Of a stretch of 64,000 nucleotides of DNA, positions 2,324 to 40,777 are shown one piece after another (the first letter of the stretch is position 1; each line of letters begins with the position of its first letter). Location: the NCBI GenBank assembly GCA_000092065.1, contig CP000594.1; one strand, given 5' to 3'. The position numbers and the translations under genes are program-made. The DNA is from Ostreococcus lucimarinus (lineage: Eukaryota). The notes beneath the pieces were generated by a model. That model was not told the origin of the DNA, made no database searches, and saw only the letters and a program-made list of their open reading frames with translations.

Positions 2324-5300
2324 CTACGTGTCTAAGAGAAATGAGTGTTCGCGAGCGATCGCGCTGAGTGGGGTTTTAAGCGATGGCGTCGCGGGCGCGG
2401 TGACGACGGCATCGAGTTTAAGCTTGAGCGCGGCGAGCTTGGCGTCGTAGGACGCTTTTTGCGTCTGCAGCTTGCCGTAAACCATTTTCGCAACGCCCTT
2501 GTAGTACACCGCACGCTGTTTTGTGGACTCGCACACGTCTAACGCGACTTGCGTGGCCTCTTTTGCGGTGTCGATGACGTTCTGTCGTTGGATCGGAGAA
2601 GGAGAGGCGTCGCGCGAACGCGTCGGCGTCGACTTTGGCGGCTTCGCAGCGCCGCCGCGCATCTCGCGCTCAACCTTGGCAATTTCTTCATCCAATCTCT
2701 GGGCGTACAAATCGTTGCTTTGCATCGCCGCCTCGGCCTCGGCGGCTTCGTGTGCGAGATAGTCCGCGAACGAAGTTTCGTGGACGTCCTCGTCTCGCGG
2801 CTGCGTGGATTCGGCTTGTTGTCGCGAGGCGACGGTGATTTCCTTCAACTGCGCGCTGAGTTCTTCGAGCATCGTCTTTTTCTCCATTTGAACGGCATTT
2901 AGCGATCTCTTCATCTCGCTCAACTCGTCGCGAAGGTTTTCAATTTCTGAGGATTCTTTCATTGACGCCGCTTCGGTGCGGCGCTCGCTCGCTCGCGATA
3001 ATTCGCTTCGAAGTTGCTCGACGGTTTCCTCGAGCGCTCGCGCCGTGTGTTCGTACTCGTGCAAACGAGACTCCACGAGCTGCCTCGCCTTGATCTCATC
3101 ACTCGTCTTTTGCAAATTCGCCTTATATTTGCACGCGAGCGCGAGGTTTTCATCCTTGAACTTGGTTAATCGCGCGAGCGCGGCTTCGCTCTTGGTGAGC
3201 TCTGCGCGCAGCTTTGACCGTTCGGCTTGCAGACGACTGATTTCGTTCGACTGCCTCGAAGCCATGTCCACGAGATCCCGATTGGTGGCGACTAAATTTG
3301 CAACGTTCATCTTGCGAGATCCCGAGCTCGACGCGCGCGCGCGCGCGTTCTTCATCGGCGAAGGCGAGTGGGGATCTTCGCTTTCAGAAACGTCTTCGAT
3401 GTCGACTTCCGTCTCCTCTTCCGCGAGCTGCGCGGCGATGATGACGTCGTCGAGCTGCGAAAGCAAGTCTTGTTCGCGCTCGCGCATCGTGGCTAGCTCT
3501 TGCTGCAAGTGCGCGCAGTGCTCGAGCGCGCTTTCCAGTTCAGTAGTGAGATCGACGATTTTATATTCCTCCACGCTCGACGCCTCTGCGGCGGCGCGAC
3601 GCGCTTCTTGCGCTTCCACGATCGCCCTGTCCTTCTCCACTCGCGCTTGCTTCAGCTCGTACTGCGTCTCCTCCACCACCCGCGTAAGATCGTGGATGTT
3701 GTTCATCGCCGTCGCAAAATCTTTCTCGAGCTCGTATCGCTTCGACGAACCGTCCACGGTGACGCTTTGCAAGGCCTTTTCAAACTCGATGTTTTGCCTT
3801 CGAAGCGCCTCGAGCTCCGACGATGACTTCGCCGCGTTCGCCGCGTTTTCCGCTAAACGACGCTCCGCATCGCTGAGCGATCGACGCATTTCATCGAGTT
3901 CCGCGTTTTTGGCTTCAATCATGGCGTAGACGTCTGATTCAGACTTGGAGCTCTCGGCGCGATGCAACACGACTTCGCTCTCAGAACGCTCGAGCGCGGC
4001 GCGCAACTCCACTTCTCCCGCCTTGCGCCAAGTCAGCTCGCGCTCCAAGTCTTCATTTTCGCGCTCCAAGCGTTGATTCTCGGTCTCGTAATACACCTTT
4101 TCATTGGCCGCCTCTTGCACCTCTTCCAATCGCGCCTCGAGTTGTTCAATCTCCGCGCGCGCCGCGTCGAGTTCGGCGCAGAGTTCCTCGGCTTCGATTT
4201 CGCTCGCACCCGCGGCGAGTTCTCTCAACTTCGCCATATCGTCTTGAACGCTTTTGTGATTCGCTCGAGACGCGCTCAACTCGCGTTCGCTCTGCCGCAA
4301 CCGAGTTTCGAGCTCTATGAGCTCGCGCCGCGCTTCCTGCGCCTCCACTTGCGCGGCGCACCGCTCGGTCTCCGCCTTGACACACTGCGCGTTCGCCGCG
4401 TCCATCTTCGCCCAAACATCGCGCACGGCCTCTTTCACCGCCCCCTGCACGCGACGATCGCTCGCCTCGAGCTCGTTTTCCTTGTCGTTCAATCGAAGCT
4501 CGAGCTCGTGCAAGCGCGCCTTTAATCGAGCGGCGTTTTCATTCGCCGCGACGAGTTTACGCGCCGTCTCCTTCGTTTTGCGCTCCTCGACTAATCGCAC
4601 GCGCTCGATCGCCATCGCGACTTGTGGATCGTCCACGTTCGGCGTCGCGCACGCGGATTCGTCTCCTTCGTCGTCGTCGTCCTCCGCGCGCGTCGCCGCG
4701 CTCCCCTCACCCACCTCCACCGCCGCCGCCCTCGACGGCGATTCCACCGAACCCTCCGCCGTCGTCGCCTCCAACCGTCGCTCCAGCGCCACGACCACGT
4801 CTCCCGCGTCGACGTCCTCCGTCTCCGAATCCCCGTCCTCGCTCGCCGTCGTCTTCTCCATCGACAGCGCGCGCGACCGCGCCAACCGTTCCCTCGTCCT
4901 CGCCATCTCCTCCCGCCACGCCGACCCAAGCGGTGATTTCCCTCGACTCGCGCTCCCCGTCCCTCTCGGCGTCGTCGTCGTCGTCCCCATCGGCGTCCGC
5001 CGCGCGTCCCTCTCGCGTCTCGCCGTCGCCGCCGCGTTTAAATCGTCGTCGTCGTCGTCGTCATCACGATTCGTCCCCCCATCGTCCCGTCGCGCGTCCG
5101 CGCGCCTCCCTCGCGTCCGCGCGCTCACCGGCGGCGTGTTCTCCTCCCCCCTCGCCGTCCCTCGCCCCTTCTTCCCCCTCGTCGTCGTCGTCGTCGTCGT
5201 CTTCGCCCCGTCGTCGTCCCATCGCGGCGGCGTCATCGCCCCCTCGCGCGTCGCGTCGCGCGCCGCGTTCGCTCGCGCGTCGCGCGGCGTCAGCGGCGAC

Positions 5301-28195: not shown

Positions 28196-28367
28196 TTCTT
28201 CATTCTCTCATGCTTTTACGCGCGCGCGACTGTTTTAATCAAACTCAAAGTCGTCGTCGACTCTTTCTCCGTCGCGCGTTGACTCTGAGAGTCGACGTCT
28301 CGTTCTCAAACCTAATCTATCGTTACAATCTACCCTTCGCGCCGCACGCCGCGCACAAGAGACGCGT

Positions 28368-28553
28368 TTATTCTCTCCCCACCGCCTCGCTCTCGCGTCT
28401 GAGCTCTCGCACGACCGCGGCGAGCGCCTCTGGATTCACCCCACGTTCGATCAGCGCGATCAAAACCGCGAGTTGTTCGCGATCAACGCCGCAATCGAGC
28501 AGCTTCGCGACGTCGTACGCGTTATCGAGCGTTTCTCGAGCGGCGTCCGCCAT
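28368..28553 (-). CDS. MZT1: Mitotic-spindle organizing protein 1 (MOZART1), 61 aa
   Basis: ATG verified at 28551-28553 on the complement. RETLDNAYDVAKLLDCGVDREQLAVLIALIERGVNPEALAAVVRELRRE aligns motif-for-motif with MZT1, a subunit of the gamma-tubulin ring complex. Confidence 0.7.
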   Translation of the reverse strand: MADAARETLDNAYDVAKLLDCGVDREQLAVLIALIERGVNPEALAAVVRELRRESEAVGRE

Positions 28554-28706
28554 TTCGCCGCGGACGCTCGAGCGCGCGCGGTGTGACGCGAGCGCAGGAA
28601 GTCGAGAAGCTCAGCAACTGTCACATTTTCAAACGCGGCGCGACGCGGCGATGGATGATTGACTAACGATTGGCTTATATTACAAGTGGTGATTTTACTA
28701 GAGCTC

Positions 28707-31700
28707 TCAGAGCATTCGGCTGGCGCGCTGCGCTGCGCGCGCGCGCGCAGCGGCGCGGCGGTCCGTCGGCGCGGTTTCAGTCGACGGCTCGGTCGCCGCT
28801 CGGTTATTCCGGCGCGGCGGTTCGACGACGTCGTTCGCGCGCGCGTCGGAGTCGCTCAGTTCGAGCGACTCTTTGGACTCGTCCACGTCGCCGTGGGAGT
28901 CGGAGTCGCCACCGGCGAGCTTGGTTGTATTCGGCGCGTCTTCGCCGAAACCAAAAGAGCGCATCATAGCGCGTGATTCGCGCTTTTCGATGCGACGTTG
29001 GACTCGCCAGCGAGAGTCATCCATTTTTTCTCGCCATGTCATTCGTCGACCAGATGAAGACTCTGGATCGTGCGTAACGTCGACGTGGGCCGTCGCGTTG
29101 ATTTCTTCTTGCATCACGGCTTCGAGCTCGGCGACCTTTTCGGTAGCGCTGAGCTCGTCGCGCATCTTGGTCATTTCAAAGTAGTCGTACGTGAACGGAT
29201 CAACGCTCGTCGACGCTGCGTTCGACGTCGCGGTAATAGATGATGTCGATGGTTTTCTTGGCGGTTTCGTCGGTGACTCGAGCATGATATCGGCCGACGG
29301 CGGCGTCCACGAAACCGAATCGCGCGCCGGGAGTCGCGGCGGTCGCGGGATGTAACCTGGCGGATACAAAGGCGCCGGCTTTTCGATCGATTCTTTTTCG
29401 GTTCGCTCGCTTTGTCGCGCCAGACGTAATTGTTGCGCGATGATTTCGTTGTACTGCGCCACGCGGGCCTCGACGCTGTCACGAGCTGCTTTTTCTCCTG
29501 TGGCGGCGTAGGCGGAATCGTCGCTCGCCACAGATTTGCGCTCACCCTCGCTCGAGTGCGACGCCACTTCGAACTCATCTTCAGAGGACCCACCGATGGC
29601 GGTGTTTTTCCTGCGCCAGCGCTCGTGATCGATCGCCTTGAGCTTGCGCTCGAGCGCGAGCGCTTCAATTTCGTGATCCCGATGCGCCGATTGATCCACC
29701 ATTGACGACTTGCGTGCTTGCCATTTGTTCCGCAAACTCTCCAAATGCACGCTGAGCTGAAGATGTCTCAGCTTTAAATCGTTCGCACCGGCTTTAGATA
29801 ACTCTTCTACCAGCACTTGATCGTCAAAAGCGGCGATCAGTTTCTCAGCCATTCGCGGATGCAACGCACGCGACGCCGCGTGGGTATCCACGATCGCACG
29901 TTTCACCGCCTCGCGTCTGTACGCGTGCTCGTCTTCGATTTCTTTTCGCTCAGCTTCTATCTTAGCCGCGATGACCTCGTCTTTGACGTCTCCGCGCACA
30001 GAGCGCAAGACTGTGATACAAAAGTTCAAATTCAACGCGTAAATGAGCAACGCTGCGATGACGGAGGCTGCTTGGTGCTTCACCGTGGACATCAACGCCC
30101 CGGCGTTGTAACTCACCAAAATTGTTGTCAGCGATGCGATCTCTACCTTGCGGTGTTGATCCTTCTCGTAAATGTCCAAAATCAACACCAACGCGAGGTA
30201 GCTTTGTAAGATGCCGATGGAGATGTACGCCGCGAGAAGCGGAGTTTCAGGAAGGAGCACCGAAGCTGCGACGAGCAAGCCTTTCCGCATCATCACCACG
30301 AATTCCCAGTAATACCTTTCTTGCGTGAATCCGATGTAAAGAAAGCCGTACAGCGCTTTTGTCTTTGCCCAGCGTAATTGATTCCGATGTCGTTTCAGCG
30401 CTCCAAGGATGAAATACGGAAATCCGAAGACGAATATCGAGGCTAAAATGAAATATCCATACATCGTCATCTTGTATCGAGCGTTATCAGTGCGCACGTT
30501 GTAATCGATGAACAAAAATCGTCCGATACCCTCGACAGAGGTCGAACGAATCATCTGCATGATGTTGGTAAAGATTGGGTACCAGCACATGGCGAGCGTC
30601 ACGGCTTTAAACAACCCGTTGGTGATGTCGCCCGCTGACGGCGCGAGCACTTCGAGTTCGTCCTCGGTCCATTGCTGGACAATATATCCTTCTTTATTCA
30701 CCTTTGTGAGAAGTTGCAACTTGTACGCATCCGGTTCGGAATCATTTAAATCTGGCGCGCGTTTCATGCGATCCAACTGGAATCGCAATCCTTCGACGTC
30801 TTCGCCCTCCCTTCTCGCGTTAATGTACGCCGACTCCAACGCATGCCTCTTTTCGTACCACTCACTTCGTAGTTTGAAGAACGCCGTCAGGCGAAGGTAT
30901 AAATAAAGAGGCACACACAGCGCCGCGAAGATGCCGACCGTGCCAAAACTGTACGTCGTGTACTGAATGTGATTCCACTTTGACACGCAATCCGTCGCAA
31001 ACGCCTTGATCGACGTCGTGGACGTGAGCCTGGCGAGCGGGAACAGCACGCCGACGACGTCTGGCCACCCGAGGTTGATCGTTCCGAGCGTTGCAAGCAT
31101 GTGAAAGTGAGAGACGATGACCTTGGTGTAGACGATTTGCGCTGGTAATGCGCTCCGCGCGGCGCGACAAATCAACAACATGGAGACGATTTGGACAATC
31201 GTGAGGACGAACAAGCTCATACCGCTTAGCCATTTTGGCCAACATTTCGTGCACCGCAGCGACGTTTCAAGCGAGCGCGAGTCTTCTAGACTGGCATACT
31301 CTTTTCGCGCATCACACGTACCACACAGCGTCCCAGAGTAACCGATGTTACACAATTCGTCGCCTTCACCGACGCCGCCTTTGCAGCTGTACGGTGATCG
31401 ACACCTTAGCACGCCCAACTTTGTCTCGTCGGCGCGCCAGTTGCCTTCCGAGAGAGATAATTTTGTGATGTCTCGTGAATCGCACACCGCGCCATCGGGA
31501 CAAGATCCACACTCGTACGCGTCGTACGGCTCCAATCTGTAATAACGCGTATACGTCGTCGTTCCATTTTGCGCCGGTCCAGTGAGTGTGCACTGACACG
31601 AGGTTTTGTTCACGTTTGCGAGATGGCCCGGAAGTGTTTCCCCGCTCGAAGTCACGTGCATCTGGCGCGGTTTGCCATCTTCGCCGGTGTACGTGTTCAT

Positions 31701-34700
31701 CCGTATCGGACACGCATCGCACAGTGCTGGTCCACTACCGGTTTTGTAAAAACCCGCCGCGCACGGCACACACGCACCGTACGGCCGCAACGAAGTTATG
31801 AAGCTCGAAATCCTGGATGGGTCGACTTGAGCGTAGAGACCTGGATAACTCGATACTGAAACTGACGGAGGTTGATAACCCGATCCTGAGGCGTCTTCCG
31901 TATATCCTGGATAACACTCGCACGAACCATTGGAGGTAGACTGCGAATGTGGCTTTACTGTGCTGCACGGAAAGAGCGTGAGTCCACCGGTAACGTTGAG
32001 CTCGGCGGTGCCAAGCTTAAACATAAGACTGTACGTCGTCCCGCGCCGACCGATGACTGTCAAATCTTTGAACGTCGCGAGACCGTTCGAGACGCGTTCT
32101 GACCCTCCGATCACCGCATATGGAGCCGGCGTTACTGTTACCGTCACATTATCCACTGAGTTTGTCACGACGTTGCCCGAAATATCGTAAACGGTGATTT
32201 CAAACGTTGGAAGCGATACGTTGCTGTCATAGCTCGATGGAATGCGCTGCGTACCGAACTCAAGCCTGTACGGATCTCCGGGCTCGATGATGACTTCCAG
32301 AGCATCGCCAATGAGAACCAAGTTTTGCGTTGACGTGCACTCGTTGGCTTGACATTCAGACTGAAATTCTAGCACGTAACGCCCTGCGAGCGGGCGAATG
32401 AATTTCAGCCCCGTTGCGGTGCCGACAAATCCAGGGTCGCTTCGCACGCCGTAAAAGTCCAAACCAGTCCCCGTGGTGCCAGCGACATTCGGAGGTGAAA
32501 GTCCACCAAGCGAGCGTAAATATGCGGTCTCAGCGGCGAGCTTGTTCTCGCTCGCTTCGCTACTATCTGGCGAGCAAAAGCTCTTTGCGCGATTGCTCTC
32601 TGTGCCATCGGCGCACCACGCCGCTACACCATTGACGATGTAAAGGGCGCCCACACTCACTGATCGTGAATTGCTCGGCGAACAACCAATTGTGGCGTCC
32701 GCGCACGATACGCTTGTTTCATCGGCGATGAGCGGTGACGTCACCGTTGTGGTGGACGTCGTCACTCCTGTGGCGCTCAGTGCGTACTGTTTTAGGTTGA
32801 CGTTGACGGCTCGGCGGGCTTCGGCGGTGTCCAACGAAGAGCCCATGAGTAATCCACCGGCGTCACGTGTGACGACAAAAATGTCAGTAAGATCGACGAC
32901 GTCTGCACTTTTGTATGGACGTGTATCTGTGCACAAACCGACGGGGAATTCCACGGTGACGTCAGCGCGAGCGCAATTTGGGCAACCGCACGCGTCCAGA
33001 GATGAAATATCGCCAGCCTTGATGAGAATGTCGAACGAATATGGCGTGAGGACCACGGGTGAAGGTGTCGACACAGTTACTCGATATGTCCCAGCGACGG
33101 GATTGTAGAGCCTGATGCCAGAGATTAGTCCAACGCCCGACGAGGTGGCGTATTGGCTGATTTCGGGCGGCTGCGAAAATGGGTCTTGCGTTGTCGACGT
33201 CACGTATTTTATGCCCACGCTCACATGTCGCAAGATCCCAAAGTCAGCGCTCGTGACTTCGTTTGCACCACCATCGGTAACCGTCACCGCAAACGGGGCT
33301 AATATCAGAACTCGTGCCGCCATGAGCGTTGTCGGACGACTGTACGTGGCGTCGTTTGGAGTTGGATAGCCACGCGAGCTCGGCACATTAAGTTGACTCG
33401 CATCGCCGAGGGTGATTGCCACGGCCACGCTATCCGATATCAACCCATCGCCTGCAAATGTCAAGACATACTGACCTACTTCCAGCGCTTGCGCGGTGAT
33501 GCCAGTAAATTTAACGATGGATCGTCCCATCGGCGCTGTAACCGATTTCGTAGCGTACGCTTGCGTCGTAAACGTCCTAGTCGAGTTGAATGAGGAACGT
33601 AAAGTCGCCGTGATAACCTTTGTGAACTGGTTGCTTTCCAATAACGTCCCACCAGCATCTTGCATGTGCACAGTGAATTCATCAAATAAAATGAGAGCAC
33701 TTGATTTGTATGAAGTCACGGTTTCGATGGTTGAGACGTGCTCTAGCTTCGCCGGAACACCTTCGATGATTTTCACCGTCATATCGTACGAGCTCAAGCC
33801 AGACGTGGAAAATCGGATGACATGCGTGCCCTGTGGTGGCGAACTGAGATAGAAATTACTCAGTACCACGGTCCCTGCGACTGTCGTACTACTTGTCGTA
33901 CCGAGCAACTGCGCGGTGCTATCCACCACGGAGATGGTCAAAGTGCGATTGACGCCGTCTTCGGCGAGCAGTTTGTTGCCCGCGGCGTCCACGACGTTCA
34001 GAACGAACGGTTCCGATGCACGACCAATAAGGGTGTAAGTCGATGACTTGAGCCCCACTTGACCGACCAAGCCTTCAAAGGAGTCCGGGAAGACGACGTC
34101 GAGCGACGCGGCAGAGCCCGGCCAAACGTCGTATGACACATCCACGTCAACCAAACCGGGGGATTTAAAGGTAACGATTGCCTTTCCACCGTGAATGGTG
34201 GACTTTGGAAGTCGAAATGCGATGTCGCTGAACGTCGCTGTGCCACTACTGATGGCTTTCGTGTGCGTTTGAGGTTGTGTCGCCGCGCACGCGTTTCCAG
34301 ACAACACACACGGATTCGTCCTGGCGACGTCAAACACTGCCTCAATCGTTCCGGCACAGCTCGCGTCGCCGGTGACACAGGTAGGAGAATACGCGCTCCC
34401 GACCAAATTATCGCCGCCATCCATAACGACAATGACGATTGGGCTCAAGACCACGAGCGCCGCTGACCTATACTGCGTACAAGTACACGAGGAACCACTT
34501 CGCAGGAGCGTCGTTGTCGTCGTACACAATCCTGTCCCTGTGTCGCGATATTGCACGTAATAATCATCGCAAGGCGCTCGTATAGCGAGATGGTGTGCGC
34601 GCCCGAGAGTCACAGTGATAGACTGCGTGAGATTCGAAAACGCTGGCATCGCTGGCACGTGAAATTTCAGCGTGTGCGTACCCACCTTTGCTCGTTCAAG

Positions 34701-37700
34701 CGCCAATCCCGCGAAAGTCACCGCGTTTGTCGCGACGTCAAAACTCGGACTCAATCCAGTCGACACAGCCAGCGGATCAGGAATGACAAACGCATGTCGT
34801 GTCGCAACCGTGGCATTATACGTCAAGTAATCGCTCTTCACCCCGATAGCATCGCTTGAGACGCCGGATGTGAACTCAAGGTACGCCACGACAGGAGTGT
34901 CCCCTAAAACGTAATTGACTCCATTTGCGTGCGCGTCGTACATTTGAAAATCGAACGCATCCAGAGGGACGTAATATGCCGCCGCGTAACGTCGAAACGT
35001 CGACATATTCATCACGCCAAACTCTGGTTCGTAAGTCGTCACTGGGGAGTTCGTGAGCGCAAAGCTACTCGGTACGCCTGACGTGACGGTGATGTTGAAG
35101 TTCAAATCCACGAGCGGCGAGGTGTTCGTGGACATGACGTTTCCAGAACTATCCTTCAGCGTGTTAGTCGTCGAAGAACACGTGATTCCGTGCACACCCA
35201 GCGTGACGGAAGACAAAGTCAAACCGGTGAGTACGGCGGCCCCAGTGCTCAAAGTATTGCCCGTGAGCGTTCCTGAAATAGAAAGTGTCGAGCTGGTGCA
35301 TGCGAAGGCGCGATCAACTGTGTACGAGAGCGTTGACGCATCATAACGGTCGTTCGCGCCCAAGAAGCTTCCCCCAATATCCGCCACATAAATCGTCAAA
35401 TCGCCCAGAGGCGTCGACGATCCGGCATAACGTATGTCAGAGCCGAACTCGAGGGTATGTTTCCACTGATGACCGATGTTGCCTTCGACCAGCTGAACGA
35501 GTTGCTTTGCCGGGCGAATGTAATCCGAACCAGTCGCGTAAAAGGCGATTACGTAATACCCAGCCGGTTGGACATCGAGCGTGATACTATTCGCTGCGAA
35601 CGTCCAAGTGGCTGTTCCAGTTGAATCCGTGACGCTCGTCGTGGAAGTCGGTTCGAGCGTGAAAGAGTCGCCGTATGCCCGAACGTCAACCGAGGCACCA
35701 GACTCCGGCGGCGATGTGATCAAATTATTTCCAGCGTCGTACAATCGCACCGTGATCGCGTTTGGGATGGTCAGCGTCGTTGAAGACGTCGTCATTGAGG
35801 GCACGATATGGTTATCTATCTCCAAATATCTCGGTCGACCGACCACAGTGGTGAATGCGGATATTGCCGAACCAAAGGACGCAGAGAATAGAAATCTGTA
35901 CGTCGCGTCCGCATCGTTTACTCCCCTGGACGCCGCAGGGTAGGTTAGATTGTTTACGAATATCGTTTTACCGGGTGTTCTCGCACCGATCGGTGCAGGA
36001 TTGAGAAGCTTCAAGTCACGGAATACCGCCACGCCTCGATGCGTAGACACTGTCGTGGAGCCATTGATAATCGATCCAGAGGTTCGCGGAGCGTTTGACG
36101 CGTCCACAGATGTCACCGAGATTGAGTGCGAAACTTCGTCAAAGTTGTGCAACCTGTTGCCTGCGGCGTCTAACACGTACACGTTTACGACGCCGACGTC
36201 GGATTCCTCATTAGTGGGCACCACCAATGTGTTTGTTGAGCTCGGTATCGCGGCCAATCCTACAGGCGCTCCAGGCACGACGGTGAAATGGAACGTCGTC
36301 GCCATCGCAAGGGCAATGCAACTTGAACCAGTGCAGTCTTCACCGATGACATCGACGACATAATTACCCATCCGCAAAGGTGCGCTAAAACGTAATTGAA
36401 ACGTTGCCTTACCATCCAAAGTGGTGATGGTGGACGGCACCGTCGTCATCGTCACCCCTGGTGTATCCGTGGAGAGCGAGGTGTTTAGCGTCGCCGTGAT
36501 TTTAAATCCCCGCGTCCCGCCAACGCCAAGATCATCCGCGATGACGGTGCCTCTGTTATCCACCAAGTTCACCGTCATCGCGTCGAGCGTCATTGTCGAC
36601 GCGCCAGCATCTTTCGTTGACTCATACGCAGTGTGAGCGATGTTTTGTCGCGCGTGCGTCACGCGAAGACCATTCGGCGTTCTATGCAGCGCTAGGGCGA
36701 CGCCGGTATGATAATCCACCCCATTCATGCTAAAATCCACCGTCACCGACGTCGGTGGCGGGTCTAACAACCACGGCATTTTCACGTGGTAGTCTCCACA
36801 TCCGTTTGCGCTCGTCGAAGGACAGAGGGGACACGTGACGCGTGTCGAGTTGACGTACGCCGCGTCCAACACGCTCTGAGCGCCGAATCGACATTTGAGC
36901 ACGCCGTCGACGAATGGACCGCCATCGATAGCAATTACCGCTGGATCCCCATTCGGTACTTCTCCCGTAAATAGCACCGAAGGCACGTGTGAATTCGTTA
37001 CCGACGTCGCGACGAGATTCGGCGGGTCGTAATACATGTAATTTGCCATTCCGCCGACCCATATAGAGTTTTCAAAAAACGTCGCGAGCGCGCTGCGATC
37101 GTCCGGATAACCCTCAAAACTGATACTGACGGCCGATATGTACGTACCGGTCGCCGCGAACGCACTGTACGACGGCGCATCGCATTCGATCGTTGTCGAA
37201 TTCACCAGTTTGGCTGGCACATACACGGGCGAACCGTCGTTCAAAAATCGGCACGCCACGCGGTGCGACAGAGTGTCGTCCGGGGCCCAGGAAGAGTCGT
37301 ATGGAAACCCAACACCACGAATCGTGAGCGTTGTCCCACCCGCCTTGGGTCCTCTTGAAGGGGAAATATCATCGATTTCTGTCACGGAGAAGCTTTGGTA
37401 CGAGATTTCTGCGTCCGAAACATTGTACGTCCCTGTGAACAACGCACCCATGCTTGGGATCGTCGTCATCGCACCGATCGGTCTTGTCGACGCCGTCGAC
37501 CCTTGAACTTCCATGCACGCCGATCCGACGCAGTTGGCATCCGGGAATACTTTGACTTTTACTATGCGCGTCGGAGCATTCACGTCTGACGCGTCCTGGC
37601 TCGTGAGGACGTACAGCGTCCCTCCACTCGCACCCCCATCGCTCACTGTCTCGATGGCGAGCGCATCCCTAACTAAACTACCACTCGTTCCTAACTTGAC

Positions 37701-39071
37701 GTGTTCTATCGCCGAGCTCGTGTTGTTGAATGATTTTCTAACCCGGTATACGCACGAGATGCGACTGACGCACGTTGCGCCGCACATCGCGCCGTTGTAA
37801 GGCGCACTCGATGTCGCGACGTAAGCATAATCTCCCATCACTCCGAGCGCGGTAAACGCGGTATACCTTCCGAGATAGCTCGACGAAAGCAAAGAATGAC
37901 CTTCGCACGCCGCGTCGATGGCGGTGGCGTCTTTAAAGTACAGCTCCCCATCCGCCGCGATTACGCTCTCGCTCGAGTACGGATTCAGGCGAACAATCGC
38001 GGGATAATCTTGCGCCGAACTAGCCTTCGCGCGACCTGCGAGAAACATATCGACGCCACCACCAGTTGTGCCGACCGTGACCGCCTCGGTGAACTTACCT
38101 GCGTCTCGTCTGTTGTGGCACGCCTCGCACGCCGCGCGCAGCGTCGGCAACGATATATCCTTCGCGCTCGGCGCTGCGTCGATACCGCTCGAATACACCA
38201 GCACGCGACCAAGCGCGCTCACCGCTGTGGGTGTTACTTTTAAAATCAAATCATCGTCCGTGCCCATGGCCGCAACGTCGACGATGTATCCATCCGTGGT
38301 TTTCTCGTGACGATTTCTAATCGTCCCGCCGCCCGACGCCAAATCTGACCACACGACGTAACCGTATTCAACTGGCTGCCCCGCCCTTCGCACCCACGCG
38401 TTTGCGATGGCGTATATCACATCACTCGTCGCGCTCGCGACGACGATCGGTCCGCGCATGGCTATCGTCGACCACCCGTCGCTCGTCGCCGCGTCGCCGC
38501 GCGGATGCCCGCACGACCCCTTCCATCCGTTTGGCACAGGATCATCCACGTCGAGCACGATCGTCCCATTCGCCTGCGGCCGCGCGGGCCAACGCGTGGG
38601 TTCATTCGCGTTCCACGCCCGCGCGCTCGCATCGCCCAACCGCGCGTAATGATCCACGCACAGCGCGTCTCGCCCGCCCATCGCGACGACTTCTCGCGTC
38701 CCCGCCGCGCGCGCCGTCGCGCACGTCACCTCCCGCGGCGCCGCCCCGACCCCCGTCGCCATCACCGGCGCCATCGCCGCGTACCACGTCTCCCGCACCG
38801 TCCTTCCATCGACCTCGACGACGCGCTCGAACGTCTCCACCGCGTCTCTCGCCGCGCCGCAGTCGACGCCGTCCCGGTCCGCGCGGCAGCGACACGTCTC
38901 ATCGATCTCGCACGTCCCGTACGACCGCTGCGCCAGGCACTCGCGCGGGCAAAAGCTATACGCGTACCCTTCGCGCGCGCTCGCGCCCAGTGATCCGCAC
39001 AGCAGCGCCAGCGCGCGCGTCACCGCGCGCGTTCGTCGCGCCGCGTGTGTCGGTTGCGCGCGCGACGACAT
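28707..39071 (-). CDS. Giant (3454 aa) extracellular IPT/TIG-repeat protein with EGF-like N-terminus, multi-pass TM region and charged coiled-coil tail
   Basis: ATG verified at 39069-39071, followed by a signal peptide (ALALLCGSLGASA), then Cys-rich CPRECLAQRSYGTCEIDETCRCRADRDGVDCG. Numerous Ig-like IPT/TIG units (e.g. ISPSRGPKAGGTTLTIRGVGF, AIDGGPFVDGVLKCRFG). At least 8 hydrophobic helices follow, starting WLSGMSLFVLTIVQIVSMLLI. Final 450 aa are Lys/Glu/Arg-rich coiled coil. One uninterrupted 10.4-kb ORF. Confidence 0.8.
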   Translation of the reverse strand: MSSRAQPTHAARRTRAVTRALALLCGSLGASAREGYAYSFCPRECLAQRSYGTCEIDETCRCRADRDGVDCGAARDAVETFERVVEVDGRTVRETWYAAMAPVMATGVGAAPREVTCATARAAGTREVVAMGGRDALCVDHYARLGDASARAWNANEPTRWPARPQANGTIVLDVDDPVPNGWKGSCGHPRGDAATSDGWSTIAMRGPIVVASATSDVIYAIANAWVRRAGQPVEYGYVVWSDLASGGGTIRNRHEKTTDGYIVDVAAMGTDDDLILKVTPTAVSALGRVLVYSSGIDAAPSAKDISLPTLRAACEACHNRRDAGKFTEAVTVGTTGGGVDMFLAGRAKASSAQDYPAIVRLNPYSSESVIAADGELYFKDATAIDAACEGHSLLSSSYLGRYTAFTALGVMGDYAYVATSSAPYNGAMCGATCVSRISCVYRVRKSFNNTSSAIEHVKLGTSGSLVRDALAIETVSDGGASGGTLYVLTSQDASDVNAPTRIVKVKVFPDANCVGSACMEVQGSTASTRPIGAMTTIPSMGALFTGTYNVSDAEISYQSFSVTEIDDISPSRGPKAGGTTLTIRGVGFPYDSSWAPDDTLSHRVACRFLNDGSPVYVPAKLVNSTTIECDAPSYSAFAATGTYISAVSISFEGYPDDRSALATFFENSIWVGGMANYMYYDPPNLVATSVTNSHVPSVLFTGEVPNGDPAVIAIDGGPFVDGVLKCRFGAQSVLDAAYVNSTRVTCPLCPSTSANGCGDYHVKMPWLLDPPPTSVTVDFSMNGVDYHTGVALALHRTPNGLRVTHARQNIAHTAYESTKDAGASTMTLDAMTVNLVDNRGTVIADDLGVGGTRGFKITATLNTSLSTDTPGVTMTTVPSTITTLDGKATFQLRFSAPLRMGNYVVDVIGEDCTGSSCIALAMATTFHFTVVPGAPVGLAAIPSSTNTLVVPTNEESDVGVVNVYVLDAAGNRLHNFDEVSHSISVTSVDASNAPRTSGSIINGSTTVSTHRGVAVFRDLKLLNPAPIGARTPGKTIFVNNLTYPAASRGVNDADATYRFLFSASFGSAISAFTTVVGRPRYLEIDNHIVPSMTTSSTTLTIPNAITVRLYDAGNNLITSPPESGASVDVRAYGDSFTLEPTSTTSVTDSTGTATWTFAANSITLDVQPAGYYVIAFYATGSDYIRPAKQLVQLVEGNIGHQWKHTLEFGSDIRYAGSSTPLGDLTIYVADIGGSFLGANDRYDASTLSYTVDRAFACTSSTLSISGTLTGNTLSTGAAVLTGLTLSSVTLGVHGITCSSTTNTLKDSSGNVMSTNTSPLVDLNFNITVTSGVPSSFALTNSPVTTYEPEFGVMNMSTFRRYAAAYYVPLDAFDFQMYDAHANGVNYVLGDTPVVAYLEFTSGVSSDAIGVKSDYLTYNATVATRHAFVIPDPLAVSTGLSPSFDVATNAVTFAGLALERAKVGTHTLKFHVPAMPAFSNLTQSITVTLGRAHHLAIRAPCDDYYVQYRDTGTGLCTTTTTLLRSGSSCTCTQYRSAALVVLSPIVIVVMDGGDNLVGSAYSPTCVTGDASCAGTIEAVFDVARTNPCVLSGNACAATQPQTHTKAISSGTATFSDIAFRLPKSTIHGGKAIVTFKSPGLVDVDVSYDVWPGSAASLDVVFPDSFEGLVGQVGLKSSTYTLIGRASEPFVLNVVDAAGNKLLAEDGVNRTLTISVVDSTAQLLGTTSSTTVAGTVVLSNFYLSSPPQGTHVIRFSTSGLSSYDMTVKIIEGVPAKLEHVSTIETVTSYKSSALILFDEFTVHMQDAGGTLLESNQFTKVITATLRSSFNSTRTFTTQAYATKSVTAPMGRSIVKFTGITAQALEVGQYVLTFAGDGLISDSVAVAITLGDASQLNVPSSRGYPTPNDATYSRPTTLMAARVLILAPFAVTVTDGGANEVTSADFGILRHVSVGIKYVTSTTQDPFSQPPEISQYATSSGVGLISGIRLYNPVAGTYRVTVSTPSPVVLTPYSFDILIKAGDISSLDACGCPNCARADVTVEFPVGLCTDTRPYKSADVVDLTDIFVVTRDAGGLLMGSSLDTAEARRAVNVNLKQYALSATGVTTSTTTVTSPLIADETSVSCADATIGCSPSNSRSVSVGALYIVNGVAAWCADGTESNRAKSFCSPDSSEASENKLAAETAYLRSLGGLSPPNVAGTTGTGLDFYGVRSDPGFVGTATGLKFIRPLAGRYVLEFQSECQANECTSTQNLVLIGDALEVIIEPGDPYRLEFGTQRIPSSYDSNVSLPTFEITVYDISGNVVTNSVDNVTVTVTPAPYAVIGGSERVSNGLATFKDLTVIGRRGTTYSLMFKLGTAELNVTGGLTLFPCSTVKPHSQSTSNGSCECYPGYTEDASGSGYQPPSVSVSSYPGLYAQVDPSRISSFITSLRPYGACVPCAAGFYKTGSGPALCDACPIRMNTYTGEDGKPRQMHVTSSGETLPGHLANVNKTSCQCTLTGPAQNGTTTYTRYYRLEPYDAYECGSCPDGAVCDSRDITKLSLSEGNWRADETKLGVLRCRSPYSCKGGVGEGDELCNIGYSGTLCGTCDARKEYASLEDSRSLETSLRCTKCWPKWLSGMSLFVLTIVQIVSMLLICRAARSALPAQIVYTKVIVSHFHMLATLGTINLGWPDVVGVLFPLARLTSTTSIKAFATDCVSKWNHIQYTTYSFGTVGIFAALCVPLYLYLRLTAFFKLRSEWYEKRHALESAYINARREGEDVEGLRFQLDRMKRAPDLNDSEPDAYKLQLLTKVNKEGYIVQQWTEDELEVLAPSAGDITNGLFKAVTLAMCWYPIFTNIMQMIRSTSVEGIGRFLFIDYNVRTDNARYKMTMYGYFILASIFVFGFPYFILGALKRHRNQLRWAKTKALYGFLYIGFTQERYYWEFVVMMRKGLLVAASVLLPETPLLAAYISIGILQSYLALVLILDIYEKDQHRKVEIASLTTILVSYNAGALMSTVKHQAASVIAALLIYALNLNFCITVLRSVRGDVKDEVIAAKIEAERKEIEDEHAYRREAVKRAIVDTHAASRALHPRMAEKLIAAFDDQVLVEELSKAGANDLKLRHLQLSVHLESLRNKWQARKSSMVDQSAHRDHEIEALALERKLKAIDHERWRRKNTAIGGSSEDEFEVASHSSEGERKSVASDDSAYAATGEKAARDSVEARVAQYNEIIAQQLRLARQSERTEKESIEKPAPLYPPGYIPRPPRLPARDSVSWTPPSADIMLESPTKPPRKPSTSSITATSNAASTSVDPFTYDYFEMTKMRDELSATEKVAELEAVMQEEINATAHVDVTHDPESSSGRRMTWREKMDDSRWRVQRRIEKRESRAMMRSFGFGEDAPNTTKLAGGDSDSHGDVDESKESLELSDSDARANDVVEPPRRNNRAATEPSTETAPTDRRAAARARAAQRASRML

Positions 39072-39469
39072 CGGCGTCTTCGTCGCGCGTTCGCGTCGTC
39101 TTCAGCGCATCGCACTCGATGTCCGCGCGTCGGGCGATGCGCGACGGTGCGTTTTATCCGCGCGTCGCGTCGCGTCGCGTCGTCGCGTCGCGCGCGCGTC
39201 GCGGTTCGGCGTCGCGCGTCATTCCCCCGCGGCTCAGTCTCGTTCGGCTCTTGGATACAACACGGAACGTGCGCGCACATCGAATCGTCGCGCTTGACCG
39301 GCGCGCGGGAGACGCGCGCGCGGCGAGAGCGCGACGCCGCGCGCGCGATCGCGGTCGATCGTGATTCGAACCGCGCGCGACGGCGCGCGGGAGCGAACGC
39401 GGACGTCGACGCGCGGGCGCGAAGGCGCGCGCGTCGGGAGACGCGAGACGTCTCTTCGTATCCCTCGCG

Positions 39470-40777
39470 ATGATGCGAATCGTCGTCGTCGTCGTCGTCG
39501 TCGCGAGCGCGGCGCGCGTCGAGCGCGCGCGCGCGTCGACGATCGTGGACGCGTCGAGCGACGTCAGAACGGGCGGTTTCGCGGAGGTGCGCGGTCGGGC
39601 GCTTCGCGGGACGAGCGACGCGGAGGCGTGTCGAGCGCGCGCGTGGGCGACGGGCGCGGACGCGCCGGGCGGCGCGTCGACGGCGGAGGCGACGTGTGCG
39701 GCGATCAGTGCGACGTCGGCGACGCGATGCGAGGCGGCGATGGCGTCGTTGAAGTGTCGGCTCGCGCGGGCTGGCGCGCGCGCCCGCGCCGAGGCGTGTG
39801 ACCTCGCGAGCGCGGACGATTGCGAACGGTGCGTCCTGCGCGCGCTCGGACGAGGCGCGAGAGGACGCGGAAACATGAACGACAACGATTGGGACGACGC
39901 GGTGGAAGACGAGGCCGCTTTTGAGAGTGACCGCGCGATTACGCTGGACCGCGCGGTGGAGTTTTCAATGTACGTCGACGAAACGCACGCCATCGACAGC
40001 GATTGCAAGTTTTTGGTCTCCATGTTCAGAGCCGAGATGGCATCGCGGGTCGTAGAGTCATTCTCCACGCTGCTCGCAGAGGCGCAGCGCGAGGCCAAGG
40101 CGAGGGCGGAAGAAATCACCATCGCGCTCGCGGAAATTGACGAAGCGGCTCGCAGAAACGCTCGCGACGTCGAGCAAGCGGCGATGGCGCTCGACAAAGT
40201 ACGCCGCGACCAGCTCGAGTTCGCGACGCGGTTTGAAACGTTTGCGGCAAACTTGAACGCCGCGCTGGACCGCGTGGAGCGCGCGTCGCGCGGCGCGCTG
40301 CGCGCCGCTCGATTCGCCGCCGAGCTCGCGAAGCGCTGCGCGGGAATCGTTTCCGAAACCTTCGCGTCGTTGGTTTCGGTTGAGATGATTTTCGTGCGCT
40401 TCATCGTCATCGCGTTCGGAACCACGCGCCCGGCTTTACGGCGTTGCTGCTTTACGGCGTTACTCGTGGAGTGGATGTTACGCGCCGCGCCGCGAACGGC
40501 GGCGACGACGCCCTCCAATCGTCTTCGCCTCGGTCTCCTCTGCGCGTTCGCGCCCAGGATCTGGACGTACGCGAAAGAGCAACTACATCGCTCGCGACGC
40601 GACGACGCCGAGACGGGTCGCGTCGACGTCGGCGCGAAACCGCGATCCGGTCGTCGCGCGCGAGGCGTCCCCGCGGCGCGAATCGAACCGTCGCCTCGAG
40701 TCCCCGAGCCGACGATCGCATCGCCGCGTCGCGCCAGCGCGCGCCTTCGCGCGACGAAGACGACAAAAATAATTTAA
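39470..40777 (+). CDS. Hypothetical protein (435 aa) with N-terminal signal-like segment and coiled-coil middle
   Basis: ATG at 39470 (MMRIVVVVVVVASAARVERARA). The middle has plausible composition. The last 120 aa are Arg/Pro-rich and may be non-coding read-through. The stop is only 23 bp before the next gene's ATG. Confidence 0.35.
   Translation: MMRIVVVVVVVASAARVERARASTIVDASSDVRTGGFAEVRGRALRGTSDAEACRARAWATGADAPGGASTAEATCAAISATSATRCEAAMASLKCRLARAGARARAEACDLASADDCERCVLRALGRGARGRGNMNDNDWDDAVEDEAAFESDRAITLDRAVEFSMYVDETHAIDSDCKFLVSMFRAEMASRVVESFSTLLAEAQREAKARAEEITIALAEIDEAARRNARDVEQAAMALDKVRRDQLEFATRFETFAANLNAALDRVERASRGALRAARFAAELAKRCAGIVSETFASLVSVEMIFVRFIVIAFGTTRPALRRCCFTALLVEWMLRAAPRTAATTPSNRLRLGLLCAFAPRIWTYAKEQLHRSRRDDAETGRVDVGAKPRSGRRARGVPAARIEPSPRVPEPTIASPRRASARLRATKTTKII

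What the first reader, a model, noticed from the sequence alone, without database searches (positions are those of the whole stretch)
28707..39071. 10.4-kb intronless ORF encoding a 3454-aa IPT/TIG-repeat surface protein with a polytopic C-terminus
It is by far the largest gene in a window where the median gene is about 1.2 kb. It has a signal peptide and an EGF-like Cys knot. About 2500 aa of Ig-like IPT/TIG units follow, with motifs GP..GGT..TI.G. Then come eight or more TM helices, and a 450-aa Lys/Glu-rich cytoplasmic coiled coil. The architecture suggests a sensory/adhesion receptor or a cell-surface or flagellar-surface structural protein. It does not match a well-known family by eye.
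Basis: partly seen in the sequence, partly recalled or inferred. Interest (0 to 1): 0.5.

Follow-up and report, generated by a model that had tools for sequence, protein, structure and literature searches.

The report
Giant CRMP-like surface receptor gene
The 10.4-kb gene is real and encodes a giant cell-surface protein of the tiny green alga Ostreococcus lucimarinus. Its nine-helix membrane core belongs to the same family as the CRMP proteins that trigger secretion during host invasion in Toxoplasma and malaria parasites, a family that turns out to be spread across eukaryotes.

Summary
The ORF (window 28707-39071, minus strand, 3454 aa) is real and is identical to the annotated O. lucimarinus CCE9901 protein XP_001421522.1 / UniProt A4S7W4.

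- **TIG domains:** Pfam finds only one, at residues 566-636.
- **Repeats:** The long repeat region holds 11 divergent units of about 120 aa (796-2375). They fold as generic Ig-like beta-sandwiches and are not IPT/TIG by sequence.
- **Membrane region:** A Cys-rich stalk (2376-2612) leads into nine TM helices (2613-3025).
- **Tail:** The 429-aa tail is charged (R/E/D/K 34%) and partly conserved. A crude heptad test gave no support for a coiled coil.

[quoted passage not shown] A profile scores TgCRMPA at E 6e-64, and a TM-only profile scores it at 2e-48. The module occurs in 1919 protein clusters, including green algae, CRuMs, ancyromonads, ciliates, an oomycete and diplonemids. No solved structure resembles it.

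The best reading is a contact- or ligand-sensing receptor that signals through the nine-TM core. Its function in this flagellum-less, extrusome-less alga is inferred, not shown. I rate it a new member of a known kind, of moderate interest.

The parts
28707..39071 (-). Complete single-exon CDS, 3454 codons plus stop; O. lucimarinus XP_001421522.1 / A4S7W4
38976..39071 (-). Residues 1-32: probable signal peptide (R-rich n-region, h-region ALALLCGSLGASA, ASA|RE)
   Evidence: sequence inspection and KD 1.73; no dedicated predictor was run
38859..38951 (-). Residues 41-71: six-Cys EGF-like motif (C-x3-C-x8-C-x5-C-x-C-x8-C)
   Evidence: sequence; no Pfam hit; orthologue P0061 has the canonical EGF signature CACAEGFVGGSC at the same position
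37377..38849 (-). Residues 75-565: N-terminal 'head' domain of unknown fold. It is lineage-specific: absent from syntenic orthologue P0061 and unrelated to the head of P0063
   Evidence: no Pfam; no PDB sequence hit; only a >90%-identical relative found
37122..37376 (-). Residues 566-650: IPT/TIG domain 1, the only Pfam TIG hit and the only copy of the GPxxGGTxLTIxG motif
   Evidence: Pfam PF01833 E 2.2e-8, residues 566-636; motif count
36687..37094 (-). Residues 660-795: probable second TIG-like/Ig-like domain (…LKCRFGAQSVLDAAYVNSTRVTCP…)
   Evidence: sequence inspection only; weak internal match 605-637 vs 725-755, E 0.41; no Pfam hit
31947..36686 (-). Residues 796-2375: 11 divergent Ig-like beta-sandwich repeats of about 120 aa. 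Units: 796-927, 929-1046, 1073-1196, 1192-1314, 1347-1486, 1510-1650, 1663-1770, 1766-1888, 1896-2019, 2040-2254 (with a Cys-containing insert), 2260-2375. Motif phi-x-phi-x-D-A-G-G-N
31236..31946 (-). Residues 2376-2612: Cys-rich stalk (EGF/ephrin-receptor-like repeats). Its last part, from about residue 2520, belongs to the conserved CRMP core
   Evidence: Ephrin_rec_like 2433-2464, E 0.003, below the cutoff; the same domain passes the cutoff in homologues P0063 and P0069; invariant Cys columns
29997..31235 (-). Residues 2613-3025: nine-TM CRMP-type core. TM1 2613-2639, TM2 2643-2662, TM3 2701-2733, cytosolic insert 2734-2812, TM4 2813-2841, extracellular hairpin 2843-2853, TM5 2864-2894, TM6 2922-2939, TM7 2944-2965, TM8 2971-2996, TM9 3000-3025
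   Evidence: hydropathy; AF2 pLDDT 81, pTM 0.79; mapping to sequence; homology to CRMP cores
30282..30350 (-). Residues 2908-2930: family signature YGFLYxGF…YYWEF..M.RK at the cytosolic end of TM6. W2922, E2923 and R2929 are conserved in at least 90% of the 24 aligned sequences; K2930 is invariant, as is E2977 in TM8
   Evidence: alignment A1; the same motif is visible in the TgCRMPA, PbCRMP and Paramecium sequences
28710..29996 (-). Residues 3026-3454: cytosolic tail, 34% charged, with a Pro-rich stretch 3228-3275 containing PPGY (3237-3240). Residues 3003-3177 are conserved in P0061 and P0063

Best explanation
The gene encodes one giant N-out/C-in membrane glycoprotein of the CRMP-like superfamily.

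A signal peptide directs a roughly 2580-aa ectodomain to the naked cell surface. That ectodomain runs: EGF-like knot, a lineage-specific 490-aa head, one or two TIG domains, 11 Ig-like repeats, and a Cys-rich EGF/ephrin-receptor-like stalk. The stalk is fused directly to a nine-helix membrane bundle homologous to the conserved core of the apicomplexan and ciliate cysteine repeat modular proteins. A conserved charged cytosolic tail follows.

**Proposed mechanism (inferred by homology and anatomy):** The string of Ig-like domains would hold the variable head tens of nanometres from the membrane (my estimate). Binding or contact at the head or repeats is passed through the rigid disulfide-rich stalk to the nine-TM bundle. 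The bundle's conserved polar cluster at the cytosolic leaflet (E2923, R2929, K2930, E2977) and the conserved tail then relay the event to the cytoplasm. The likely output is a membrane or secretory response, as CRMPs produce for rhoptry and mucocyst discharge.

**Shown:** gene integrity, domain anatomy, nine-TM model, CRMP-core homology, and wide eukaryotic distribution.

**Inferred:** surface location, topology, signalling role, and downstream output.
For: - **Gene integrity:**
- **Other homology tests:** A TM-only profile scores TgCRMPA at 2.4e-48 over positions 3-342 of 354. A profile built only from five CRMP sequences scores the Ostreococcus segment at 4.4e-13. A profile that excludes the Ostreococcus sequences scores it at 7.3e-78 (all). 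The single sequence scores 2e-9 against Paramecium and 5.5e-5 against TgCRMPA.
- **Matching definition of the core:** CRMPs are defined by a core of two EGF-like domains plus nine TM helices. Their ectodomains carry ephrin-receptor-like, furin-like, parallel-beta-helix and Ig-like modules (PMC9815656). Homologues found here carry Ephrin_rec_like, Chlam_PMP and TIG.
- **Structure:** The AF2 model gives nine TM helices with pLDDT 81. K/R residues are denser in the loops predicted to be cytosolic, read from the sequence.
- **Conservation:** The tail is conserved in the Ostreococcus-like and Micromonas-like orthologues.
- **CRMP function:** CRMPs are surface-exposed and needed for regulated exocytosis in Toxoplasma and Tetrahymena (PMC9670195; PMC9815656).
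- **Distribution:** 1919 clusters contain the module, in green algae, CRuMs, ancyromonads, ciliates, an oomycete and diplonemids.
Against: - There is no experimental data for this protein or for any green-algal homologue.
- Ostreococcus has no known extrusomes, rhoptries or flagella (my own knowledge), so the output documented for CRMPs may not exist here.
- The Ostreococcus lineage has lost the Cys pair of the TM4-TM5 hairpin that 22 of 24 homologues keep.
- No CRMPB-type partner was looked for outside this window.
- Signal peptide and topology were not tested with dedicated predictors.
Confidence: 0.6

Rival explanations
1. Passive adhesion or surface-coat protein. The Ig-like string forms a glycocalyx or adhesin on the wall-less cell, and the nine-TM bundle is only a robust anchor with no signalling role.
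For: - The ectodomain is 75% of the protein. It is S/T-rich with 22 N-x-S/T sites.
- The repeat fold resembles S-layer, adhesin and MG domains.
- The head domain is hypervariable.
Against: - A single TM helix would be enough for anchoring.
- The nine-TM bundle is the most conserved part of the family across eukaryotes. It has invariant polar residues (K2930, E2977), and W2922, E2923 and R2929 are conserved in at least 90% of sequences.
- The cytosolic tail is conserved.
- Loss of CRMPs blocks exocytosis rather than attachment or gliding motility (PMC9815656).
Confidence: 0.2
2. Channel or transporter with a giant ectodomain, working like polycystin-1/PKD-type mechanosensitive assemblies. The nine-TM bundle, possibly as a dimer, would conduct ions when the ectodomain is pulled.
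For: - The layout is analogous to polycystin-1: Ig-like repeats, then a stalk, then a polytopic domain.
- CRMPA and CRMPB are predicted to pair through their TM domains (PMC9815656).
- Conserved charged residues lie in TM6 and TM8.
Against: - There are no Pfam PKD_channel, REJ, PLAT or GPS hits.
- The conserved charges sit at the cytosolic ends of the helices rather than lining an obvious pore. This is read from the secondary-structure map only.
Confidence: 0.1
3. One reading: an IPT/TIG-repeat receptor of the plexin/MET/fibrocystin kind, with about 2500 aa of TIG units.
For: - There is one genuine TIG and a weak TIG_2 (plexin) hit at E 0.25.
Against: - Only one Pfam TIG is found.
- None of 34 repeat units hits TIG.
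- hhalign of the repeat profile against the protein's own TIG gives probability 0.6%.
- The motif occurs once.
- There is no Sema, PSI, G8 or PbH1 domain.
- The protein has nine TM helices rather than one.
Confidence: 0.05
4. Artefact: several genes, or a chance ORF, fused by the reader.
For: None found.
Against: - The 3454-codon ORF is identical to the NCBI model.
- Its 90%-identity cluster holds 392 members.
- It is collinear with the syntenic orthologue, which sits in the same HAD-MOSC-x-gene-MOZART1-PGM neighbourhood.
- Domain order makes sense from signal peptide to tail.
Confidence: 0.01

Closest known systems
Cysteine repeat modular proteins (CRMPs): Toxoplasma CRMPA/CRMPB, Plasmodium CRMP1-4, Tetrahymena CRMP1/2 (PMC9670195, PMC9815656)
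   Same: - The 'conserved core' is homologous: the last EGF/ephrin-receptor-like Cys-rich repeats plus nine TM helices. The profile scores TgCRMPA at 5.8e-64, the TM-only profile at 2.4e-48.
- The signature motifs are shared: KI..NY.Q, WP, YGFL.NG…YWE…RK and P[FY]…N.LE.
- Both have a large modular N-terminal ectodomain with a signal peptide and a cytosolic C-terminus.
   Different: - The ectodomain content differs. This protein has one or two TIG domains, 11 Ig-like repeats and a unique head. It has none of the Kringle, MAR or C-lectin modules described for apicomplexan CRMPs, and Pfam found none here.
- The host organism is a free-living green alga without rhoptries, mucocysts or other known extrusomes.
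- The loop Cys pair kept in 22 of 24 family members is missing.
- No partner subunits are known (CRMPB-type, MIC15, TSP1).
- The function is untested.
Polycystin-1 (PKD1) and fibrocystin (PKHD1)
   Same: The overall logic is similar: a giant ectodomain made of many Ig-like repeats (PKD or TIG) on a membrane-embedded signalling part. These proteins are thought to sense contact or flow (my own knowledge).
   Different: - There are no PKD, REJ, GPS/GAIN, PLAT, PKD_channel, G8 or PbH1 domains by Pfam.
- The protein has nine TM helices, not 11 or 1.
- The resemblance is therefore analogy, not homology.
Adhesion GPCRs
   Same: Both have a large adhesive ectodomain coupled to a helical bundle. CRMPA has been called 'GPCR-like' on the basis of a PANTHER assignment (PMC9670195).
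   Different: - The protein has nine helices, not seven.
- There is no 7tm or GAIN Pfam hit.
Ig-like repeat strings of bacterial adhesins, S-layer proteins, and macroglobulin/filamin domains
   Different: - There is no significant sequence match to any Pfam family or PDB chain.
- The unit is a eukaryotic repeat type that travels with the CRMP-like core in several supergroups.

Membership tests
CRMP / CRMP-like nine-TM superfamily | Sequence homology across the 'conserved core' (EGF-like Cys-rich repeats plus the TM region) as defined in PMC9815656 | tested here: met
   - The A1 profile scores TgCRMPA at 5.8e-64, PbCRMP1 at 3.7e-60, PbCRMP2 at 5.6e-51, Paramecium at 6.1e-48 and TgCRMPB at 3.4e-27.
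- The TM-only profile scores TgCRMPA at 2.4e-48.
- A CRMP-only profile scores the Ostreococcus segment at 4.4e-13.
CRMP / CRMP-like nine-TM superfamily | Nine transmembrane helices at the C-terminal end, with N-terminus outside and C-terminus inside | tested here: met
   - The AF2 model (pLDDT 81, pTM 0.79) has nine long hydrophobic helices.
- Hydropathy peaks agree.
- The orientation is inferred from the signal peptide, the odd helix count and K/R-rich alternate loops. It is not experimentally tested.
CRMP / CRMP-like nine-TM superfamily | Large N-terminal modular ectodomain with a signal peptide and Cys-rich (EGF, ephrin-receptor or furin-like) repeats next to the membrane | tested here: met
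   - Ephrin_rec_like at 2433-2464 is sub-threshold here but above the cutoff in homologues P0063 and P0069.
- The stalk has invariant Cys columns.
- The signal peptide is judged by inspection.
CRMP / CRMP-like nine-TM superfamily | Heteromeric complex of two paralogues (CRMPA with CRMPB) and accessory TSP1/MIC15-type proteins | not tested
   - Only one CRMP-like gene lies in this 64-kb window.
- The rest of the genome could not be searched.
- A separate, shorter Mamiellales-type protein exists (P0069, whose cluster includes a Micromonas pusilla protein). P0067 comes from a Bathycoccus-like contig, judged by GC only.
CRMP / CRMP-like nine-TM superfamily | Required for triggered exocytosis of a secretory organelle (rhoptry or mucocyst) | not testable with these tools
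   This is functional data from Toxoplasma and Tetrahymena only. No such organelle is known in Ostreococcus (my own knowledge).
IPT/TIG-repeat receptors (plexin/MET/fibrocystin type) | Tandem array of IPT/TIG domains recognisable by the TIG profile | tested here: not met
   - There is one Pfam TIG hit only.
- None of 34 repeat units matches TIG.
- hhalign of the repeats against the protein's own TIG gives probability 0.6%.
- The motif occurs once.
IPT/TIG-repeat receptors (plexin/MET/fibrocystin type) | Sema/PSI or G8/PbH1 modules and a single TM helix | tested here: not met
   No such Pfam hits were found. The protein has nine TM helices.
Polycystin-1 family | PKD repeats, REJ, GAIN/GPS, PLAT and an 11-TM/PKD_channel region | tested here: not met
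Adhesion GPCR | Seven-TM bundle of GPCR fold preceded by a GAIN domain | tested here: not met
   - There are nine helices.
- No 7tm or GAIN Pfam hit was found.

The most novel reading that the evidence does not exclude
CRMP-type nine-TM receptors are not an alveolate invention for firing extrusomes. They are an ancient, possibly LECA-age, family of giant contact sensors.

Ostreococcus is a minimal eukaryote with no flagella, wall, scales or extrusomes. It keeps one member whose head domain differs completely between close relatives. That pattern would point to an ancestral role in cell-cell or cell-virus recognition coupled to a membrane fusion or secretion event. Candidates include gamete recognition in the never-observed sexual cycle, or the docking site used by prasinoviruses.
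Probability: 0.2. Interest if true: 0.7.

Novelty: new member of a known kind. Interest (0 to 1): 0.45.

Why it matters
- **Family range:** CRMPs are essential invasion factors of Toxoplasma and Plasmodium. In the literature I could search they are treated as apicomplexan- or alveolate-specific, with only a passing note of Dictyostelium homologues. A clear homologue in a green alga, and in CRuMs, ancyromonads, an oomycete and diplonemids, moves the origin of the nine-TM core deep into eukaryote history. It also separates the core from extrusomes.
- **A simple test system:** My understanding is that Ostreococcus is haploid, very compact and open to gene targeting in O. tauri. It may therefore be a simple place to learn what the nine-TM core actually does, which is still unknown in parasites.
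- **Ostreococcus biology:** For the alga itself, this is a candidate for the main long-reach surface receptor of a naked cell. That makes it relevant to virus adsorption, grazing, aggregation and mating.
- **Unmodelled domains:** Neither the Ig-like repeat unit nor the nine-TM core matched any Pfam-A model in the copy searched, so both could be turned into new models.

Tried and rejected
- **The search for homologous proteins:** The full protein timed out. The C-terminal 663 aa and profile A1 returned nothing or only a 537-aa fragment, and not the protein's own 90%-identity cluster. Its word index seems to miss C-terminal parts of giant proteins. I relied on the exhaustive HMMER search instead.
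- **NCBIfam scan:** nothing found.
- **Whole-protein self-BLAST:** it gave only the identity hit, because contained HSPs are culled. Chunked BLAST worked.
- **PDB sequence searches:** profiles A1, A2 and A3 and the head domain gave nothing significant.
- **afdb50 fold library:** not available, so AlphaFold-DB relatives such as Dictyostelium Q86I19 could not be checked.
- **Head domain (75-565):** No Pfam, PDB or distant homologues were found. Smith-Waterman against the head of P0063 gave z = -0.9. I ran no further search on it because its alignment would have been nearly single-sequence.
- **Horizontal transfer as a reason for the low GC:** rejected. GC3 is 0.63, against 0.65-0.82 in neighbours, and GC1 is low because of the S/T-rich composition. 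The locus is syntenic in a sister species.
- **Literature searches:** 'PTHR11319', 'Ostreococcus' with 'TIG domain', and CRMP outside alveolates gave nothing relevant.
- **Coiled coil in the tail:** only a crude heptad score was possible. It is not decisive.
Full report
**1. The observation**

The window is eukaryotic. Genes for MOZART1, phosphoglucomutase, Mre11, condensin Cnd3, MOSC and an ABC-F protein surround the finding. Exact-sequence look-up identifies the organism as Ostreococcus lucimarinus CCE9901.

The ORF at 28707..39071 on the minus strand is 3454 codons. It is identical to the annotated single-exon protein XP_001421522.1 / ABO99815.1 / UniProt A4S7W4, named 'predicted protein' or 'IPT/TIG domain-containing protein'. 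Its 90%-identity cluster has 392 members, mostly from marine metagenome assemblies.

A 2956-aa protein (P0061) is encoded on a metagenomic contig of 56% GC. It sits in the same gene neighbourhood: HAD hydrolase, MOSC, an unknown gene, the big gene, MOZART1, PGM. It is collinear with the O. lucimarinus protein from residue 569 to the C-terminus. The 10.4-kb ORF is therefore one real gene, not a chance ORF and not several genes.

**2. Anatomy of the ectodomain**

- **Signal peptide (residues 1-32).** These look like a signal peptide: an R-rich n-region, the h-region ALALLCGSLGASA and an ASA|RE cleavage motif. No dedicated predictor was available.
- **EGF-like motif (41-71).** The six cysteines have EGF spacing. 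Pfam does not score the region, but orthologue P0061 has the textbook signature CACAEGFVGGSC at the same place.
- **Head domain (75-565).** This region has no Pfam match and no PDB sequence match. The one homologue search of this domain, which has limited sensitivity, returned only a 95%-identical fragment.
- **TIG domains.** Pfam finds exactly one, at 566-636 with E 2e-8. A second TIG-like domain at about 660-795 is visible only by eye (…LKCRFGAQSVLDAAYVNSTRVTCP…), with a weak internal match of E 0.41.

**3. The repeats**

Chunked self-BLAST finds weak internal similarity of 25-31% identity between residues 900 and 2340. A recurring motif phi-x-phi-x-D-A-G-G-N marks the units. An iterated HMM tiles residues 796-2375 with 11 units of about 120 aa. 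Unit 10 (2040-2254) carries an insert with four Cys residues.

- **Not circular.** In leave-one-out tests each unit is found by a profile built from the other ten, at E 5e-7 to 2e-13. Two hundred shuffles of each unit never exceed 13.5 bits.
- **Found in distant homologues.** The profile of the 11 Ostreococcus units detects 15-16 units in each of two Mantamonas proteins and 13 in a third. It detects 11 in a Rigifila protein, 6 in Fabomonas, 5 in Nephroselmis and 5 in P0069, the representative of the cluster that contains a Micromonas pusilla protein. All of these proteins also carry the same C-terminal membrane module.
- **Fold.** AlphaFold2 on unit 8, with 34 units as the alignment, gives a confident all-beta model with pLDDT 88.9.
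- **Not TIG by sequence.** None of the 34 units hits TIG or any other Pfam family significantly. hhalign of the repeat profile against the protein's own TIG gives a probability of 0.6%.

**4. The membrane module and its family**

I searched residues 2371-3033 with an exhaustive HMMER search against 1.84 billion cluster representatives. It found 1919 proteins at E<=1e-3 and 285 at E<=1e-10.

The homologous part is always the last Cys-rich repeats plus the polytopic region. It almost always lies near the C-terminus of proteins from about 500 to more than 6000 aa.

Named members come from the following groups:
- green algae: Micromonas pusilla, Nephroselmis pyriformis
- CRuMs: Mantamonas, Rigifila
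- an ancyromonad: Fabomonas
- ciliates: Tetrahymena malaccensis, Halteria
- an oomycete: Aphanomyces stellatus
- diplonemids: Diplonema, Namystynia

An alignment of 24 modules (A1) shows invariant stalk cysteines and a WP motif. It also shows the signature YGFLYxGY…YWEF..M.RK and invariant K2930 and E2977.

AlphaFold2 on this alignment gives pLDDT 81 and pTM 0.79. The model has nine long hydrophobic helices, an extracellular hairpin between TM4 and TM5, and a disordered cytosolic insert between TM3 and TM4. An N-terminal signal peptide, an odd helix count and K/R-rich alternate loops together put the ectodomain outside and the tail inside.

**5. Identification as a CRMP core**

The layout of Cys-rich repeats plus nine TM helices recalled the apicomplexan cysteine repeat modular proteins. 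Singer et al. (PMC9815656) define a CRMP 'conserved core' of two EGF-like domains plus nine TM helices. They list ephrin-receptor-like, furin-like, parallel-beta-helix and Ig-like modules in the ectodomains. Homologues found here carry Ephrin_rec_like, DUF7630, Chlam_PMP and TIG.

I took CRMP core sequences from that paper's S3 Table and scored them with Z set to 1e6:

| Query | Target | E-value |
|---|---|---|
| Profile A1 | TgCRMPA (222 bits, profile positions 36-432 of 444) | 5.8e-64 |
| Profile A1 | PbCRMP1 | 3.7e-60 |
| Profile A1 | PbCRMP2 | 5.6e-51 |
| Profile A1 | Paramecium homologue | 6.1e-48 |
| Profile A1 | TgCRMPB | 3.4e-27 |
| TM-only profile | TgCRMPA (positions 3-342 of 354) | 2.4e-48 |
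| Profile of the five CRMP sequences | Ostreococcus segment | 4.4e-13 |
| Ostreococcus segment alone | Paramecium homologue | 2e-9 |
| Ostreococcus segment alone | TgCRMPA | 5.5e-5 |

The TM-only result shows that the match is not driven by cysteines. Membership in the CRMP-like superfamily is therefore established at the sequence level.

**6. The tail**

Residues 3026-3454 are 34% charged (R46, E46, D32, K24 of 429). They include a Pro-rich stretch at 3228-3275 that contains PPGY. A crude heptad score is no higher than in shuffled sequences, so I do not endorse a 450-aa coiled coil.

The first roughly 150 residues of the tail, within the aligned stretch 3003-3177, are conserved in the Ostreococcus-like orthologue. 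They are also conserved in a 3168-aa homologue from a 67%-GC, Micromonas-like contig. This suggests a functional cytosolic interface.

**7. How it probably works**

The following points are shown:
- It is a single gene for a giant protein with an N-terminal signal-like sequence.
- The ectodomain has about 13 Ig-like domains and a variable head.
- A disulfide-rich stalk is fused to a conserved nine-TM bundle.
- A conserved tail follows.

The mechanism is inferred as follows. In Toxoplasma and Tetrahymena, CRMPs are needed for contact-triggered discharge of rhoptries and mucocysts. In Toxoplasma they are exposed at the surface with the N-terminus outside and accumulate only transiently at the exocytic site.

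By homology, the most likely role here is a contact or ligand sensor. Its ectodomain reports through the stalk to the nine-TM core. The conserved polar cluster at the cytosolic leaflet, together with the tail, would then relay the event to the cytoplasm.

What the output is remains open in an alga with no known extrusomes and no flagella (my own knowledge of the genus). The flagellar-surface idea can be dropped for this organism.

Rival readings are a passive coat or adhesin, and a channel-like device. They are less likely because the membrane bundle is the best-conserved part of the family and no channel fold was found. Neither is excluded.

**8. Novelty**

The gene model is already in the databases, so the feature itself is not new. 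In the sources I could see, it carries no link to CRMPs.

The searchable literature treats CRMPs as apicomplexan- or alveolate-specific, with one remark about Dictyostelium homologues. I recall that PANTHER has a broad 'GPCR-related' family that may already cover these proteins. I could not check this.

I therefore classify the finding as a new member of a known kind. Two useful by-products are the wide eukaryotic range of the core and of the accompanying Ig-like repeat type.

**9. Things noticed along the way**

- **Variable head.** The 490-aa head is absent from the syntenic orthologue, where EGF is followed directly by TIG. It is unrelated to the head of the Micromonas-like homologue (z = -0.9). 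This is the kind of variability seen in recognition molecules.
- **Lost Cys pair.** The Ostreococcus lineage has replaced the Cys pair of the TM4-TM5 hairpin, which 22 of 24 homologues keep.
- **Lower GC.** The gene body has lower GC than its neighbours: 0.52-0.56 against 0.59-0.69. GC3 is 0.63 against 0.65-0.82. I attribute this to its S/T-rich composition and weak codon bias rather than to foreign origin.

Noticed in passing
window 37377-38849 (-), residues 75-565: The N-terminal 490-aa head domain is lineage-specific. It is missing from the syntenic orthologue P0061, where the EGF-like motif is followed directly by TIG. It shows no similarity to the equivalent roughly 480-aa region of the Micromonas-like homologue P0063 (Smith-Waterman z = -0.9). 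No Pfam or PDB match was found. The pattern is typical of fast-evolving recognition domains.
   Followed up: partly
window 30001-38000 vs flanks: The gene body has lower GC than the neighbouring genes (0.52-0.56 against 0.59-0.69). GC3 is 0.63, against 0.65-0.82 in neighbours, and GC1 is only 0.54. The first 300 codons are 'normal' (GC3 0.79). I read this as S/T-rich composition plus weak codon bias, not foreign DNA, since the locus is syntenic in a sister species.
   Followed up: partly
window 30489-30545 (-), residues 2843 and 2861: The two cysteines of the extracellular TM4-TM5 hairpin are conserved in 22 of 24 family members. They are Ser and Thr in O. lucimarinus, and Thr and Ala in its orthologue. 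The Ostreococcus lineage has therefore lost a conserved loop disulfide.
   Followed up: partly
window 29352-29363 (-), residues 3237-3240: A PPGY (PPxY-type) motif lies inside a Pro-rich stretch (3228-3275) of the cytosolic tail. It could be a WW-domain / Nedd4-type ligase docking site. Its conservation was not checked.
   Followed up: no
window 28368-28553 (-): A 61-aa MOZART1 gene (Pfam E 1e-20) starts only 154 bp downstream of the big gene's stop codon. The 150-aa ORF at 28210-28662 (+) overlaps it on the opposite strand and is probably spurious.
   Followed up: yes
window 38402-39364 (+) and other long antisense ORFs: A 320-aa ORF runs antisense to the GC-rich 5' end of the big gene, and many overlapping ORF pairs occur across the window. 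I read these as the usual stop-codon-poor antisense frames of a 60-69% GC genome. They were not examined further.
   Followed up: no
window 32310-32954 (-), residues 2040-2254: Repeat unit 10 carries an insert of roughly 95 aa with four Cys residues, at about residues 2090-2190 (…VSCADATIGCSP…WCADGTESNRAKSFCSP…), inside the Ig-like unit. The orthologue P0061 has an even longer unit at the same position.
   Followed up: no
loci L003, L004, L005: Relatives in Mamiellales-like contigs differ greatly in size. One is 2956 aa on a 56%-GC contig (Ostreococcus-like, syntenic). One is 3168 aa on a 67%-GC contig (Micromonas-like). One is 1566 aa on a 48%-GC contig (Bathycoccus-like). Taxon assignments rest on GC content only.
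   Followed up: partly
window 39470-40777 (+): A 435-aa ORF is divergently oriented about 400 bp upstream of the big gene. It has no Pfam match, and a gene of similar size (422 aa) sits at the same position in the syntenic locus L003. It is a conserved neighbour of unknown function, and the two genes may share a bidirectional promoter.
   Followed up: no
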